Positions 44,134-58,400 of a stretch of 64,000 nt of DNA are shown in pieces. The position numbers were made by a program, and so were the translations under genes. Source of the stretch: an uncultured virus (IMG/VR IMGVR_UViG_3300044825_001403) (lineage: Duplodnaviria; Heunggongvirae; Uroviricota; Caudoviricetes); the IMG/VR virus record IMGVR_UViG_3300044825_001403, positions 62,001 through 126,000 of that record. One strand, written 5' to 3'. Below the pieces are notes generated by a model. It was not told the origin of the DNA. It ran no database searches and saw only the letters and a list, made by a program, of their open reading frames with translations. The first letter of the stretch is position 1; each line of letters begins with the position of its first letter.

Positions 44134-44220
44134 GGAGGGTCAAGCCGATAGGTGACGGCAGCTGTCTTGAAAACAGTCGAGGTGTTAAAGCCCTTAGGCG
44201 TTCGATTCGCCTACCCTCCG
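44134..44220 (+). tRNA. tRNA-Ser(UGA)
   Basis: Acceptor ggagggt/accctcc, anticodon arm gctgt-ctTGAaa-acagt, long variable arm, T arm with gttcgatt; CCA not encoded. Confidence 0.92.
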
Positions 44221-44224
44221 CTTC

Positions 44225-53138: not shown

Positions 53139-53477
53139 ATGAAAGTGCAATCAGCAAAAGCGAAAGGTCGCCGTCTTCAACAATGGGTTCGTGATAAACT
53201 TATCGAAATGCTTGATGTCCATCCTGAAGATATTGAAAGTAGATCTATGGGTGCTGGTGGGGAAGATTTAATTATGGCACGAGCTGCCAGACAAAAGTTT
53301 CCTCACAGCATTGAATGTAAAAATGTAGAAAAGTTAAATGTTTGGGAAGCATATGAACAAGCCCAAGCAAACTCAGGTGATTATGAACCAGTCCTTGTCA
53401 TGAAAAAGAATGGCAAAAAGCCATTGGTTGTAGTAGATGCCGAGTATTACATTCAACTTCACGGAGAAAAACAATGA
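53139..53477 (+). CDS. PD-(D/E)XK Holliday-junction-resolvase-like nuclease
   Basis: SAKAKGRRLQQ...GEDL...SIECKN...W..YEQA. Confidence 0.7.
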   Translation: MKVQSAKAKGRRLQQWVRDKLIEMLDVHPEDIESRSMGAGGEDLIMARAARQKFPHSIECKNVEKLNVWEAYEQAQANSGDYEPVLVMKKNGKKPLVVVDAEYYIQLHGEKQ

Positions 53478-56182: not shown

Positions 56183-56479
56183 ATGTCTATTCAAGATTTA
56201 CCAGATGATGAAAAAGATGCTATTGATATTTTAGCAAAAGCTGGATACCTCAAAGCTTCCAATGATAAAATTGAAGTATCTTTAGAATCATCAAATACTT
56301 TAAATATTCAACCAAAGGGAAATGTTTTTGGAGCAAAAGTAAAAGTAGAAAATGATGGAAGCATCACACCTACTCTCACTTTCGACACAAAAAAATTAAG
56401 AGATTCTAAAAGAATAGATGCTAAATCTGCTGTAGATCAAGCACTAGAAGATTATCTGAATGGTGGAGGCAATGTTTAA
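56183..56479 (+). CDS. hypothetical protein
   Basis: 98 aa from ATG 56183. Confidence 0.6.
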   Translation: MSIQDLPDDEKDAIDILAKAGYLKASNDKIEVSLESSNTLNIQPKGNVFGAKVKVENDGSITPTLTFDTKKLRDSKRIDAKSAVDQALEDYLNGGGNV

Positions 56480-56945
56480 ATTATTTGAAGTTAAGGAAGG
56501 AAAATTAAAAATTTTACCTTCATTAAGGTTTAAAAATATTGGTGGGTTTATTATAATTTCAATTGTTGCAATTATAATTGCTAACTTATCAGGAGCATTG
56601 AAAGTAAATGAAAGAGATCTTTGGAAATTTTATAATCTTTTAATTAATAGACTTGGTTTACAACAGGAACTACCTGACATAAGAGATCATGAAAAACAAC
56701 TTGACGCTCAAATTGAATTGGAAGTTGATAAAGCAATTCGTGATTACGAACGCTTGACAGGAGACGATGGAACTGTTAGAATACCACCACCACGACGTTC
56801 CGAGAAACCAGTAGACACCTCGGTGTGCTACACTCCTGAATGTCAAGCACTTGGAGGAGAAATCCGAATCTGTGCTCCATGGGTTCCAGATTGCCCCTTG
56901 ACAAACCAAGAACAATCTGGTACAATAAACAAGTTGTCTCAGTAG
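56472..56945 (+). CDS. membrane-anchored hypothetical protein with Cys-containing C-terminus
   Basis: TM GGFIIISIVAIIIA; CYTPECQALGGEIRICAPWVPDC; GGAGG RBS. Confidence 0.65.
   Translation: MFKLFEVKEGKLKILPSLRFKNIGGFIIISIVAIIIANLSGALKVNERDLWKFYNLLINRLGLQQELPDIRDHEKQLDAQIELEVDKAIRDYERLTGDDGTVRIPPPRRSEKPVDTSVCYTPECQALGGEIRICAPWVPDCPLTNQEQSGTINKLSQ
56898..56926 (+). promoter_or_regulatory. sigma70-type promoter for the tRNA-Arg/Val pair
   Basis: TTGACA-N17-TACAAT, 9 nt before the tRNA 5' end. Confidence 0.8.
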
Positions 56946-57058
56946 CTCAGTGGAATAGAGCAACCGCCTTCGGGAGTTCCGAGTGGACTTAATGGGGAGC
57001 ATTACCCTATACTCTCATAAGCGGTCGGTCGCTGGTTCAAATCCAGCCTGAGACGCCA
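56936..57058 (+). tRNA. tRNA-Arg (probably UCU) with a 46-nt insertion in the anticodon loop
   Basis: Acceptor gtctcag/ctgagac, G73, encoded CCA; D arm gctc/gagc with A20; anticodon stem accgc/gcggt; removing 56972-57017 gives loop ctTCTaa and a 77-nt tRNA. Confidence 0.85.
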
Positions 57059-57130
57059 GGGCGATTAACTCAGCGGTAGAGTAATTCCCTTACAAGGAAT
57101 GAGTCACTGGTTCGATTCCAGTATCGCCCA
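57059..57130 (+). tRNA. tRNA-Val(UAC)
   Basis: Acceptor gggcgat/atcgccc, attcc-ctTACaa-ggaat; abuts the CCA of tRNA-Arg. Confidence 0.95.
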
Positions 57131-57147
57131 TTACATCTATAAATATT

Positions 57148-57435
57148 ATGGACAAAGAACGATATTTAAAACTTAGAAAAGAACTTGACGATATAAAAGG
57201 AATGTTGAGAGATGTTAGTTATCAGATGCAAGAATTGCGGGAAAGTATTAGAGGAGCATCCTTCCCAACTACGATGCTGTCAGTGCCCCAACCTTACCAG
57301 CATCCGTGGTGGACATATCAGCGGTATGGATCTGTCGTTGGTGGAAATAATCTCGGGAGCCAAGTCCAAGCGTCAGGATCAATCGATCTTGACGAAACAA
57401 GATCTAGAATTTCAGGAACAACGAAAGCAGCGTAG
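57148..57435 (+). CDS. possible overprinted ORF (95 aa)
   Basis: ATG right after TAAATA; overlaps 57212..57466 in another frame for 224 nt. Confidence 0.4.
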   Translation: MDKERYLKLRKELDDIKGMLRDVSYQMQELRESIRGASFPTTMLSVPQPYQHPWWTYQRYGSVVGGNNLGSQVQASGSIDLDETRSRISGTTKAA

Positions 57436-58247: not shown

Positions 58248-58400
58248 CAGCACTGGTCGGGACCCCCTCGATTGTCCTCGTCGGATTGGACATTAAATAT
58301 GCCGACTGGTGCGGATGGGGTTTTTAACTCCCGCCGAGTTTCCAATTTTCTCGTAATCAAAATTGGTGGCGAGCCTGCTCACGGGGATTGACCGTCCCCA
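58230..58400 (+). ncRNA. structured non-coding RNA, manA-RNA-motif-like
   Basis: Stems gtcgg/ccgac, gcgg/ccgc, ccaatttt/aaaattgg with cgag/ctcg pseudoknot, gggga/tcccc; next to tRNAs; family recalled, not searched. Confidence 0.6.

What the first reader, a model, noticed from the sequence alone, without database searches (positions are those of the whole stretch)
56936..57058. tRNA-Arg with a 46-nt structured insert in the anticodon loop: a candidate non-canonical mini-intron
Seen: all four arms, G73, encoded CCA and a dedicated promoter are intact, but the anticodon loop is 53 nt. The insert (56972-57017, gggagttccgagtggacttaatggggagcattaccctatactctca) closes on itself (gggagt/actctc) and has inner hairpins (tcc-gagt-gga; taatg/catta or atgggg/ccctat). 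The register of a 46-nt excision sets the anticodon: UCU (35/36), UCG (36/37 or 37/38), UAU (34/35) or CAU (33/34). A20 and G73 favour Arg. Known: bacterial tRNA introns are group I and hundreds of nt long; archaeal ones need a bulge-helix-bulge, which I could not build here. Inferred: either a small intron removed by an unknown nuclease/ligase route, or a tRNA-shaped decoy or shield against host anticodon nucleases. The intact body argues against simple decay.
Basis: partly seen in the sequence, partly recalled or inferred. Interest (0 to 1): 0.85.

Follow-up and report, generated by a model that had tools for sequence, protein, structure and literature searches.

The report
tRNA-shaped mini-intron in cyanophage tRNA-Arg
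A freshwater cyanobacterial virus carries an arginine tRNA gene split inside its anticodon by a 46-base insert that folds like a miniature tRNA, and the evidence suggests it is cut out and the tRNA resealed by a route not yet described for bacteria or their viruses.

Summary
Window 56936-57058 is a complete tRNA-Arg gene (Rfam tRNA 55.1 bits) with a 46-nt insert at 56972-57017. Uninterrupted orthologues in four cyanomyoviruses place the insert between C35 and U36, so the anticodon is UCU.

The insert belongs to a family. Nine cyanophage-type copies share a covarying 6-bp closing helix, a 6-bp hairpin with a 7-nt loop, and a 1-nt tail. The two helices stack to 12 bp, as in the acceptor/T-arm limb of a tRNA.

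The same phage, seen in a 100% identical longer record, has:
- a second such insert at the same loop position in another tRNA, probably Thr-UGU;
- a T4-type RNA repair cassette (Rnl1 ligase, kinase, phosphatase).

Rnl1-positive cyanophages carry over-long tRNA genes in 3 of 3 cases; Rnl1-negative ones in 0 of 9.

Armatimonadota genomes carry 7+5-bp versions at the same site. In one, the interrupted gene is the only tRNA-Arg(UCU) found.

Best reading: a protein-spliced mini-intron. RNase P, RNase Z and Rnl1 are proposed as the enzymes; none is shown.

The closest precedent is the unexplained "enigmatic" tRNA introns of Lak megaphages (Devoto 2019). Earlier notes of this scan describe similar inserts on other DNA. 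No RNA data exist.

The parts
56898..56926 (+). sigma-70-like promoter (TTGACA, 17 nt, TACAAT, TG extension), 9 nt upstream of the tRNA
   Evidence: 11 of 12 matches. It lies inside the end of the upstream ORF 56460-56942. A consensus match only.
56936..56971 (+). exon 1 of tRNA-Arg(UCU): acceptor 5' strand, D arm, anticodon stem 5' strand, loop C32 U33 U34 C35
   Evidence: Rfam tRNA alignment; alignment to uninterrupted orthologues
56972..57017 (+). 46-nt insert (candidate mini-intron), type A of the cyanophage family
   Evidence: present in DNA contigs of two studies
56972..56977 (+). P1 5' strand (GGGAGT). It pairs with 57011-57016 (ACTCTC) and forms the acceptor-like helix, which starts at the first base of the insert.
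   Evidence: paired in 54 of 54 cells over 9 sequences; 4 different helices; G2-U kept in 8 of 9
56978..56991 (+). linker with a small hairpin TCC-GAGT-GGA and a GTGG motif (D-arm-like). It is the variable part of the family.
   Evidence: the hairpin is absent from the Thr-tRNA copy, so it is not a conserved pair set
56992..57010 (+). P3 hairpin ATGGGG-AGCATTA-CCCTAT (6 bp, 7-nt loop). Its 3' strand abuts the P1 3' strand, giving a 12-bp coaxial stack.
   Evidence: 53 of 54 cells paired, G-C/A-T covariation at pair 4. Relatives have the T-loop-like loops TTCAATT, TTCAAGT and TTCAAAT.
57011..57017 (+). P1 3' strand (ACTCTC) plus a single unpaired tail base A (discriminator-like) just before the 3' junction
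   Evidence: the tail is 1 nt in 9 of 9 sequences (A in 8, T in 1)
57018..57058 (+). exon 2: U36 A37 A38, anticodon stem 3' strand, variable loop, T arm, acceptor 3' strand, G73, encoded CCA
57059..57130 (+). tRNA-Val(TAC), which abuts the CCA of tRNA-Arg with no spacer
   Evidence: 70.4 bits

Best explanation
The 46 nt are a true tRNA intron of a little-known, protein-dependent kind.

Proposed route:
1. The gene is transcribed from its own promoter as a 123-nt precursor.
2. The insert folds by itself into a mini-tRNA. A 6-bp acceptor-like helix is stacked on a 6-bp T-arm-like hairpin (12 bp in all), with one discriminator-like base at its 3' end.
3. The insert is cut out at C35|G and A|U36.
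4. The two tRNA halves stay held together by the cloverleaf and are rejoined in the anticodon loop by the phage's own T4-type RNA ligase 1. The kinase and phosphatase would be used if the ends need healing. The product is a 77-nt tRNA-Arg(UCU).

My preferred cutters are the ordinary tRNA end-processing enzymes. RNase P would cut at the 5' end of the mini-tRNA. RNase Z would cut after its discriminator base. These cuts leave 3'-OH and 5'-phosphate ends, which Rnl1 seals directly.

What is shown: the anatomy, the family, its covariation, its exact site, the second copy in the same phage, the ligase cassette, and the bacterial cases.

What is inferred: that the insert is removed at all, which enzymes cut it, and which ligase seals the exons.
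For: 1. Exact site and intact exons. The insert lies between C35 and U36 relative to four uninterrupted orthologues. The interrupted gene still scores 55.1 bits on the tRNA model. Interrupted relatives score 50-61 bits in 17 of the 19 loci tested. Their exons differ by compensatory changes, for example acceptor GTCTCAG/CTGAGAC against GACTCAG/CTGAGTC.

2. Conserved structure, not sequence. In 9 cyanophage-type copies P1 is paired in 54 of 54 cells with 4 different helices. P3 is paired in 53 of 54 cells. P1 plus P3 is always 12 bp, and the tail is always 1 nt.

3. tRNA likeness.
- Loops of types B and A2 are TTCAATT, TTCAAGT, TTCAAAT and TTCAGCA.
- An isolated type B insert gives sub-threshold matches to tRNA (17 bits, E 0.085; T arm plus acceptor 3' strand).
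- It also matches the full mascRNA model (14.3 bits, E 0.46).
- The hairpin of an Armatimonadota insert matches the tmRNA T arm (E 0.026).

4. Second copy in the same phage. Record G001 is 100% identical to the window's record over 10 kb. It holds a 45-nt family member in another tRNA at CTTG|..|TAA, which gives Thr-UGU in the same register. This copy was found by its length, not by my pattern. No uninterrupted Arg-UCU or Thr gene was seen among its tRNAs.

5. Ligase. G001 encodes four relevant genes:
- Rnl1 (PF09511, 105 bits);
- a P-loop kinase;
- a PNKP-type phosphatase;
- a second RNA ligase.
Among Kyanoviridae, 3 of 3 Rnl1-positive phages have tRNA matches longer than 100 nt (G001, B23, BUCT-ZZ01). 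Among Rnl1-negative phages the figure is 0 of 9, and 0 of their 138 tRNA matches exceed 95 nt.

6. Cellular need. Armatimonas MAG G005 has 42 tRNAs. Its Arg tRNAs are CCG, CCT, GCG and TCG, plus only the interrupted TCT gene. It also has a second insert at 35/36 in one of its three CAT tRNAs. A pattern for an uninterrupted gene found none in 4 of 5 such genomes.

7. Enzymes available. All 5 bacterial genomes have RtcB and a PF09414 ligase. RNase Z is above its cut-off in 3 of the 4 bacterial genomes searched.
Against: - No RNA evidence of any kind exists. No RNA run holds the locus.
- The ligase cassette is a general repair system against anticodon nucleases. Its link with odd tRNAs would also fit a decoy role.
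- The inserts of B23 and BUCT-ZZ01 are of a different type, and no anticodon can be assigned to those genes.
- The window's own loop, AGCATTA, departs from the T-loop consensus. All matches of the isolated inserts to RNA families are below threshold.
- The rule of an RNase Z cut after the discriminator fits the 1-nt tail of the cyanophage family. It does not fit the bacterial relatives, whose tails are 2 or 4 nt (AC, AA, CAAG, TAGA, CAAT, TCAG). The 3' cut therefore needs another rule in at least some lineages.
- The same-site finding for the tRNA-Arg set was imposed by my search pattern (CTTC...TAA).
- The MAGs are incomplete, and one of the five (G007) also has an uninterrupted gene.
- The ligase cassette and the second intron lie outside the window, and outside the window's own 127.7-kb record.
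Confidence: 0.55

Rival explanations
1. The insert is not removed. The gene makes a stable tRNA-shaped RNA with a long, branched anticodon arm. This RNA cannot decode. It would act as a decoy, shield or regulator, for instance against host anticodon nucleases or tRNA-sensing defences, or as a binding platform for tRNA enzymes.
For: - The insert is conserved and structured.
- Its tRNA-like elbow could bind tRNA-recognising proteins.
- It co-occurs with an anti-nuclease repair cassette.
- B23 and BUCT-ZZ01 carry over-long tRNA-like genes with no assignable anticodon, and B23 has a normal tRNA-Arg(TCT) next to its one.
Against: - The anticodon-loop bases on both sides of the insert stay exactly those of a working Arg-UCU loop (CTTC/TAA) across divergent lineages.
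- The phage has no other Arg-UCU or Thr gene among the tRNAs seen.
- In a cellular genome the interrupted gene is the only AGA decoder found.
Confidence: 0.22
2. The insert is spliced, but by a dedicated or unknown endonuclease that measures from the tRNA body and leaves 2',3'-cyclic phosphate and 5'-OH ends. The ends are then healed by the phage kinase and phosphatase and sealed by Rnl1 (by RtcB in bacteria). On this view the mini-tRNA fold serves recognition or the later life of the excised RNA, not RNase P/Z cutting.
For: - The phage carries the kinase and phosphatase, which RNase P/Z products would not need.
- RtcB is present in 5 of 5 insert-bearing bacterial genomes.
- The 3' junction always sits 3 nt before the anticodon stem, whatever the tail length of 1, 2 or 4 nt. 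This fits a ruler on the tRNA body better than RNase Z.
Against: - No candidate nuclease was found. No EndA is present (0 of 5), and no unexplained conserved gene sits next to the tRNA.
- This reading does not explain why the 5' junction always coincides with the first base of a 12-bp tRNA-like stack.
Confidence: 0.25
3. The insert is a small selfish DNA element, or a leftover of one, that landed in the anticodon loop and disabled the gene (recent pseudogenisation). Its hairpins would be DNA-level signals.
For: - Presence and absence vary among related phages.
- Identical exons carry two different insert types (L013 against L015).
- The same hairpin module sits in two tRNAs of one phage.
Against: - The phage has only two copies, both in tRNA anticodon loops at the same position.
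- There is no target-site duplication.
- Exons stay intact in 17 of 19 loci.
- Helices covary, as expected for RNA-level selection.
Confidence: 0.08
4. The insert is a self-cleaving or self-splicing small ribozyme.
For: It is a compact three-helix RNA placed exactly at the junctions.
Against: - No Rfam ribozyme or group I match at E<=10 in 56850-57150.
- The junction strands carry almost no conserved unpaired bases.
- The 5' exon ends in C and the insert ends in A, which is not the U and G of group I introns.
Confidence: 0.04

Closest known systems
'Enigmatic' introns in tRNA genes of Lak megaphages (Devoto et al. 2019, PMC6784885; passages of the main text read, Table S6)
   Same: - Both are short inserts, not group I, in the anticodon loop of otherwise intact phage tRNA genes.
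- One Lak intron, in tRNA-Thr(TGT), was said to 'itself encode a possible tRNA'.
- Related phages have or lack the insert at the same site.
- No splicing mechanism is known.
   Different: - Lak introns are 23-141 nt by tRNAscan's prediction, and the tRNA-like part is only the end of a longer insert.
- Here the whole 43-46 nt is the mini-tRNA.
- The host phage here is a T4-like freshwater cyanomyovirus.
- The site is fixed at 35/36.
- A ligase link and bacterial relatives are shown here.
- Sequence homology to the Lak introns was not tested.
mascRNA/MALAT1-type tRNA-like elements, excised from a longer transcript by RNase P and RNase Z (Rfam RF01684; the processing route is recalled, not read here)
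   Same: The architecture is the same: acceptor-like helix, small GG-containing hairpin, T arm, no working anticodon arm. The full model aligns end to end with a type B insert. This element is the model for the proposed cutting route.
   Different: - The match is far below threshold (14.3 bits against 42.5).
- mascRNA is eukaryotic.
- It sits at the 3' end of an mRNA-like transcript, not inside a tRNA.
- No re-ligation follows its excision.
T4 anticodon-loop repair by Pnkp and Rnl1 after PrrC cleavage (pathway recalled; the families were tested)
   Same: The same enzyme families are present in this phage. They have the same substrate geometry: a break in the anticodon loop of a folded tRNA.
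   Different: In T4 the break is host damage to a normal tRNA-Lys. Here the break would be a programmed, double cut that removes 46 nt.
Bacterial group I introns in tRNA anticodon loops (tRNA-Leu UAA, tRNA-fMet, tRNA-Arg CCU, tRNA-Ile CAU; recalled)
   Same: Both lie in a bacterial-type tRNA anticodon loop, close to the anticodon.
   Different: Group I introns are 200 nt or more and self-splice through a conserved core, with a U-G pair at the 5' site and a terminal G. None of this is present here.
Archaeal and eukaryal tRNA introns cut by EndA/Sen at a bulge-helix-bulge
   Same: Protein-dependent excision followed by ligation, which is how I think this insert works.
   Different: There is no BHB. 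The position is 35/36, not 37/38. No EndA family match was found in the phage record or in four bacterial genomes.

Membership tests
Group I intron | Conserved catalytic core (P3-P8), size of about 200 nt or more | tested here: not met
   The insert is 46 nt. No group I or other ribozyme family matched at E<=10 in window 56850-57150.
Group I intron | 5' exon ends in U paired to G; intron ends in G | tested here: not met
   The 5' exon ends in C35 and the insert ends in A.
Archaeal/eukaryal BHB tRNA intron | Bulge-helix-bulge (3-nt bulges 4 bp apart) carrying both splice sites | tested here: not met
   Read by hand. Three exon bases (TAA) separate the 3' junction from the anticodon stem, and the 5' junction sits at a helix end without a 3-nt bulge.
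Archaeal/eukaryal BHB tRNA intron | Splicing endonuclease (EndA, PF01974) available | tested here: not met
   0 of 5 records (G001, G005, G006, G008, G009). The control rings in 4 archaea only. The cyanobacterial host genome was not available.
Lak-type 'enigmatic' phage tRNA introns | Short non-group-I insert in the anticodon loop of an otherwise intact phage tRNA, absent at the same site in relatives | tested here: met
Lak-type 'enigmatic' phage tRNA introns | Nested tRNA-like element in the insert | tested here: inconclusive
   The 12-bp stack and T-loop-like loops are present in relatives. Model matches are all sub-threshold. The window's own loop is AGCATTA.
Lak-type 'enigmatic' phage tRNA introns | Sequence or model homology to the Lak introns themselves | not tested
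   Lak intron sequences were seen only in the paper's Table S6. They were not aligned with this insert.
tRNA-like RNase P/RNase Z substrate (mascRNA type) | Acceptor-like and T-like helices stack to 12 bp, with a discriminator base at the 3' cut | tested here: met
   6+6 bp and a 1-nt tail in 9 of 9 cyanophage-type copies. Bacterial relatives are 7+5 bp but have tails of 2 or 4 nt.
tRNA-like RNase P/RNase Z substrate (mascRNA type) | Actual cleavage by RNase P and RNase Z | not testable with these tools
   No RNA run holds the locus.
Miniature mobile DNA element (MITE-like) | Many genomic copies, terminal inverted repeats with a target-site duplication | tested here: not met
   One copy in the window and one in the own record. 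The hairpin motif pattern matches G001 at three places, the two tRNA inserts and one differing sequence at 53180. No duplication flanks the insert.

The most novel reading that the evidence does not exclude
Bacteria and their viruses have a third, undescribed way of splicing tRNA. The intron is itself a miniature tRNA placed between anticodon positions 35 and 36 of tRNAs with U36-A37-A38. The cell's own tRNA end-processing enzymes (RNase P, RNase Z or a partner) cut it out as if it were a tRNA. An RNA repair ligase (phage Rnl1, bacterial RtcB or an Rnl) then reseals the anticodon loop. The released mini-tRNA may have a function of its own. This would give the widespread phage and bacterial RNA repair ligases a housekeeping substrate.
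Probability: 0.3. Interest if true: 0.9.

Novelty: new variant of a known kind. Interest (0 to 1): 0.72.

Why it matters
Textbooks say that bacterial and phage tRNA introns are self-splicing group I ribozymes, and that protein-based tRNA splicing belongs to archaea and eukaryotes. This finding challenges that in three ways.

- A conserved family of 43-54-nt tRNA-shaped inserts sits at one exact anticodon position. It occurs in T4-like cyanophages and in Armatimonadota chromosomes. In one genome the interrupted gene is the only AGA decoder found. This points to a cut-and-rejoin route in bacteria.
- It would give a routine job to RNA ligases and Pnkp of phages and to bacterial RtcB, whose natural substrates are still debated.
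- It offers a concrete, cheap test: one 123-nt transcript, RNase P, RNase Z and Rnl1.

There is also a practical point. Standard tRNA finders miss or misname these genes. Default ARAGORN missed this one, its intron mode called other anticodons (tcg here; Ser for the Armatimonas Arg gene), and GenBank lists the odd tRNA gene of B23 as 'tRNA-Undet'. Phage and MAG tRNA sets, and the codon-usage arguments built on them, are therefore incomplete.

Tried and rejected
- RNA evidence. The look-up of sequencing runs listed no RNA holder. This says nothing about expression.
- Literature. Four searches found no paper on short tRNA introns in cyanophages or Armatimonadota, and none on RNase P/Z-based tRNA splicing. 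Only Devoto 2019 is close. bioRxiv supplements are closed and could hold more.
- MAFFT alignments A3 and A4 shifted the 5' strand of P1 by one column for types B and Thr. I therefore counted pairs with my own parse and did not use the count of structure pairs.
- Covariance model R1, built from four type A copies, was too sequence-specific. It found types B and Thr only as partial local matches without P1, so I did not use it for surveys.
- The scan for the hairpin module alone gave 12 viral loci. Eight lie outside tRNAs, one of them between two tRNAs (L104). About that many are expected by chance from the pattern's information content (my estimate), so I draw nothing from them.
- A BHB fold, an RNase III-like 2-nt stagger and an RNase E site at the 3' junction were considered by hand and do not fit.
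- The genome search could not reach the metagenome contigs L017, L037, L038, L039 and L049. The ligase link could therefore not be tested on them.
- Rows dropped. About half of the pattern hits are adjacent tRNAs or non-tRNA DNA. L018, L022, L035, L079, L087 and L097 look archaeal. L014 and L016 are giant-virus genes with canonical introns. L072, L073, L088 and L092 lack a full tRNA match (L072 and L088 were tested).
- I searched the called ORFs of the window's record for a dedicated nuclease next to the tRNA or anywhere else. Of 155 ORFs, 142 were scanned against Pfam and none was found.
Full report
**What is there**

Window 56936-57058 (+) is a full tRNA gene. Rfam's tRNA model aligns over its whole length at 55.1 bits (gathering score 29), with one long insertion in the anticodon loop. 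Default ARAGORN misses it. With the intron option it reports tRNA-Arg with a 46-nt intron, but forces the intron to a near-canonical place and so calls the anticodon tcg.

The gene ends in G73 and an encoded CCA, and tRNA-Val starts at the very next base. A TTGACA-17-TACAAT site with a TG extension lies 9 nt upstream. It is a consensus match only.

The window belongs to a 127.7-kb IMG/VR virus record, 67% complete by CheckV. Its genes are those of a T4-like cyanomyovirus: portal, gp23, sheath, UvsW/Y, RegA, ribonucleotide reductase and others. Runs that hold it are labelled freshwater metagenomes.

**Where exactly the insert sits**

Uninterrupted tRNA-Arg(TCT) genes of Synechococcus phages S-WAM2, S-PM2, S-RIM2 and DSL-LC02 align on both sides. 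They leave a clean 46-column gap between CTTC and TAA.

Only one register restores a 7-nt loop identical to theirs. The insert is 56972-57017, between C35 and U36, and the anticodon is UCU.

Of 725 phage records with a match to the gene, none covers 80% of it. No isolate in that collection therefore has this insert.

**The insert is real DNA**

Contigs of two runs from different studies carry it, one with 0 and one with 3 differences. Insert-less relatives occur in the same kind of samples: one contig joins across exactly the 46 nt, and loose ends read CTTC|TAAGCGG.

**It is a family**

tRNA-anchored gap patterns found further copies:
- in viral contigs;
- in metagenome contigs (parsed);
- in species genomes (parsed).

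These patterns require CTTC...TAA, so within this set the common site is imposed by the search.

After dropping false hits (listed under Tried and rejected), the cyanophage-type copies fall into three types:
- type A: the window and L006, L019 and L034, L015 and L057;
- type A2: L020;
- type B: L007, L013 and L056, L037, L039.

I parsed nine distinct copies by hand, because MAFFT shifted one strand. The result:
- The closing helix P1 is 6 bp and paired in 54 of 54 cells. It takes four different sequences: GGGAGT/ACTCTC, GGGAAT/ATTCCC, GGTCTT/AAGATC and CGCCTT/AAGGTG.
- A G-T wobble is kept at pair 2 in 8 of 9 copies.
- The hairpin P3 is 6 bp and paired in 53 of 54 cells. Pair 4 switches between G-C and A-T.
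- The P3 loop is always 7 nt.
- The 3' strand of P3 runs straight into the 3' strand of P1.
- One unpaired base follows (A in 8 copies, T in 1).

The linker between P1 and P3 (11-14 nt) varies.

L013 and L015 have identical exons but carry type B and type A respectively. Their flanks are 84-86% identical. Insert types have therefore been exchanged or gained independently at one site.

**tRNA likeness**

P1 plus P3 make a 12-bp stack with a 7-nt loop and a single 3' base. That is the geometry of the acceptor/T-arm limb of a tRNA.

- The loops of types B and A2 read TTCAATT, TTCAAGT, TTCAAAT and TTCAGCA. The first three fit the T-loop consensus TTCRANY (recalled).
- The window's own loop is AGCATTA, which does not fit.
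- An isolated type B insert gives sub-threshold matches to the tRNA model (17 bits, E 0.085: T arm, acceptor 3' strand, discriminator).
- It also aligns end to end with the mascRNA model (14.3 bits, E 0.46).
- The hairpin of an Armatimonadota insert matches the tmRNA T arm (E 0.026).

These matches are leads, not membership.

**The rest of the phage**

Record G001 is 171 kb and 88% complete. It is 100% identical to the window's record over the 10 kb compared, and it extends beyond the end of that record. It holds the following.

(a) A second interrupted tRNA.
- It is 117 nt long and was found by its length in a tRNA-model scan, not by my pattern.
- Its 45-nt insert has P1 GGTCTT/AAGATC, the same P3 module and tail A.
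- It lies between CTTG and TAA, which in the same 35/36 register gives Thr-UGU.

(b) An RNA repair cassette:
- Rnl1-type ligase (PF09511, 105 bits, with a weak T4_Rnl1_C match);
- a P-loop kinase;
- a PNKP-type HAD phosphatase, in a separate overlapping ORF;
- a second ligase (PHA02142 OB fold plus PF09414).

No RtcB was found in the phage records. The window's own record has none of these genes among the 142 of 155 ORFs scanned. By the coordinate offset, the cassette lies past the end of that contig.

**Ligase link**

Among the 40 best rows of a protein search with this Rnl1, the only cyanophages are Synechococcus phages B3, B23 and BUCT-ZZ01.

I then compared tRNA-model match lengths with PF09511 in twelve Kyanoviridae.

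| Group | Phages | Over-long tRNA matches |
|---|---|---|
| Rnl1-positive | G001 | 2 of 18 (120 and 117 nt) |
| Rnl1-positive | B23 | 1 of 20 (110 nt) |
| Rnl1-positive | BUCT-ZZ01 | 2 of 33 (114 and 113 nt) |
| Rnl1-negative | S-WAM2, S-PM2, S-RIM2, DSL-LC02 | none |
| Rnl1-negative | S-CRM01, Syn9, S-CREM1, S-CAM9, S-RIM8 | none |

The nine Rnl1-negative phages have 138 tRNA matches in all, and none is longer than 93 nt. That is 3 of 3 against 0 of 9. An exact test gives 1 in 220 by my arithmetic, without correction for relatedness.

Caveats:
- The negative phages were chosen for convenience.
- The B23 and BUCT-ZZ01 inserts are another type (a hairpin followed by a CTGCAAT motif). No anticodon can be assigned to those genes, and B23 has a normal tRNA-Arg(TCT) beside its one.
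- A repair cassette and decoy tRNAs could also travel together.

**Cellular relatives**

Armatimonas and Armatimonadota MAGs and one Proteobacteria MAG carry tRNA-Arg genes with 45-54-nt inserts at the same place.

Their build is a 7-bp acceptor-like helix that starts at insert base 1. In two types that first pair is a G-G mismatch. It is followed by a 10-20-nt linker that often contains GG, then a 5-bp stem with loop TTCAATT, TTCGATT, TTCAACT or TTTGAGC. The stack is again 12 bp. The tails are 2 or 4 nt.

In Armatimonas MAG G005 I collected all 42 tRNA-model matches:
- The Arg anticodons are CCG, CCT, GCG and TCG, plus the interrupted TCT gene only.
- A second interrupted gene (122 nt) has a 49-nt insert of the same build between CTCA and TAA. 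That is anticodon CAT at 35/36. It stands beside two uninterrupted CAT tRNAs, which makes the usual three.

A pattern for an uninterrupted tRNA-Arg(TCT) found none in G005, G006, G008 and G009, and one in G007. MAGs are incomplete. Even so, this is the strongest argument that such inserts are removed, since a cell needs an AGA decoder.

All the tRNAs hit (Arg-UCU, probable Thr-UGU, CAU) have U36-A37-A38.

All five genomes have RtcB and a PF09414 ligase. RNase Z is above its cut-off in 3 of the 4 bacterial genomes searched. EndA is absent from all five records searched.

**How it most likely works**

The 5' junction coincides with the first base of the tRNA-like stack in every copy with that build:
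- 9 of 9 cyanophage-type copies;
- L077, L085, L040, L096 and L145;
- L081 and L027, with a G-G first pair.

That is where RNase P cuts a tRNA-like substrate (established knowledge, recalled). In the cyanophage family the 3' junction follows one discriminator-like base, which is where RNase Z cuts.

Both enzymes leave 3'-OH and 5'-phosphate ends. A break with those ends in the anticodon loop of a folded tRNA is the substrate of T4-type Rnl1. The eukaryotic mascRNA shows that a tRNA-like element inside a longer RNA can be released by exactly these two enzymes.

I therefore propose RNase P, then RNase Z, then Rnl1 for this phage.

The weak point is the 3' cut. Bacterial tails of 2 and 4 nt, both lengths within one genome, do not fit a cut after the discriminator. 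What is constant is that the cut lies 3 nt before the anticodon stem.

A nuclease that measures from the tRNA body, followed by kinase/phosphatase healing and Rnl1 or RtcB sealing, is therefore a serious rival for the cutting steps. Nothing here shows that any cut occurs.

**What it is not**

- Not group I: 46 nt, no model match at E<=10, and the wrong junction bases.
- Not a BHB intron: wrong position, no BHB, no EndA.
- Not a multi-copy mobile element: two copies in the phage, both in anticodon loops, with no target duplication.

**Known or new**

Devoto et al. 2019 (PMC6784885; main-text passages and Table S6 read) reported "enigmatic" introns in Lak megaphage tRNAs. One of them, in tRNA-Thr(TGT), "itself may encode a tRNA". 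They wrote that phage tRNA introns had not been reported before, and they gave no mechanism.

My four literature searches found nothing later on the subject.

Earlier notes of this scan describe similar inserts in other phages and point to the same paper. I did not check their claims beyond reading the paper.

This case adds:
- a compact form in which the insert is only the mini-tRNA;
- a new host group (T4-like cyanophages), plus bacterial chromosomes;
- a fixed 35/36 site in U36-A37-A38 tRNAs;
- the 12-bp rule;
- the ligase association.

I class it as a new variant of a known but unexplained kind.

Noticed in passing
locus L071 2151-2267 (G001:137651-137767), outside the window: A second interrupted tRNA of the same phage. 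It has a 45-nt insert of the same family between CTTG and TAA, probably in tRNA-Thr(UGU). ARAGORN calls it Pro with an intron.
   Followed up: yes
locus L068 6609-10536 (G001:164609-168536), outside the window: An RNA repair cassette: Rnl1-type ligase, P-loop kinase, PNKP-type phosphatase and a second RNA ligase with a PHA02142 OB fold. The kinase and phosphatase are two overlapping ORFs rather than one Pnkp gene.
   Followed up: partly
locus L145 (G005:C59:21000-21121) and L146 (G005:C57:18586-18703): An Armatimonas MAG has two interrupted tRNA genes (CAT and Arg-TCT) with 49- and 45-nt mini-tRNA inserts at 35/36. ARAGORN misnames them Thr and Ser.
   Followed up: yes
ON615601.1 111204-111317 and 111335-111447 (locus L155, minus strand); MN695335.1 220408-220517 (locus L153 209-318): Synechococcus phages BUCT-ZZ01 and B23 are isolates that also encode Rnl1. 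They have over-long tRNA-like genes with a different anticodon-arm insert: a hairpin followed by CTGCAAT. The genes are unannotated in BUCT-ZZ01 and listed as 'tRNA-Undet' in B23. BUCT-ZZ01 infects the model strain PCC 7942.
   Followed up: partly
loci L078, L041, L012: Other insert types occur at the same tRNA-Arg site: a 30-nt plain hairpin in a Candidatus Falkowbacteria (CPR) MAG, a 40-nt hairpin in a metagenome contig, and a 50-nt looser three-helix form in a viral contig.
   Followed up: no
loci L014, L016: Giant-virus MAG contigs carry tRNA-Arg(TCT) genes with inserts after CTTCTAA, the canonical eukaryote-like position.
   Followed up: no
window 58272-58380: A wcaG RNA motif (RF01761, 58.6 bits) sits just upstream of tRNA-Gly.
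   Followed up: no
window 44134-44221: This tRNA is called tRNA-Ser(tga) by ARAGORN. Rfam's clan competition reports it as tRNA-Sec (49.3 bits against a cut-off of 47). It is most likely an ordinary long-arm Ser tRNA.
   Followed up: no
locus L071 2528-2564; locus L013 2957-2993: abiF RNA motif (RF03085, 55.8 and 50.3 bits) lies inside cyanophage tRNA clusters.
   Followed up: no
locus L071 3517-3609: A 93-nt tRNA-like gene with a good acceptor and T arm. Only ARAGORN calls it (Arg gcg), and Rfam does not report it at the gathering score. Its nature is unclear.
   Followed up: no
locus L034 798-1048; loci L013 1963-2168, L015 2500-2705, L037 1-200: A cyanobacterial-type permuted tmRNA (110.6 bits) lies next to an interrupted tRNA-Arg on a metagenome contig. 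manA RNA motifs lie near the interrupted tRNAs of type A and type B phages.
   Followed up: no
loci L100, L102-L107, L109, L110: The hairpin module AT..GGAGCATTACC..AT also occurs outside tRNAs in other viral contigs, once between tRNA-Glu and tRNA-His (L104). The number of hits is about what chance would give, by my estimate.
   Followed up: partly
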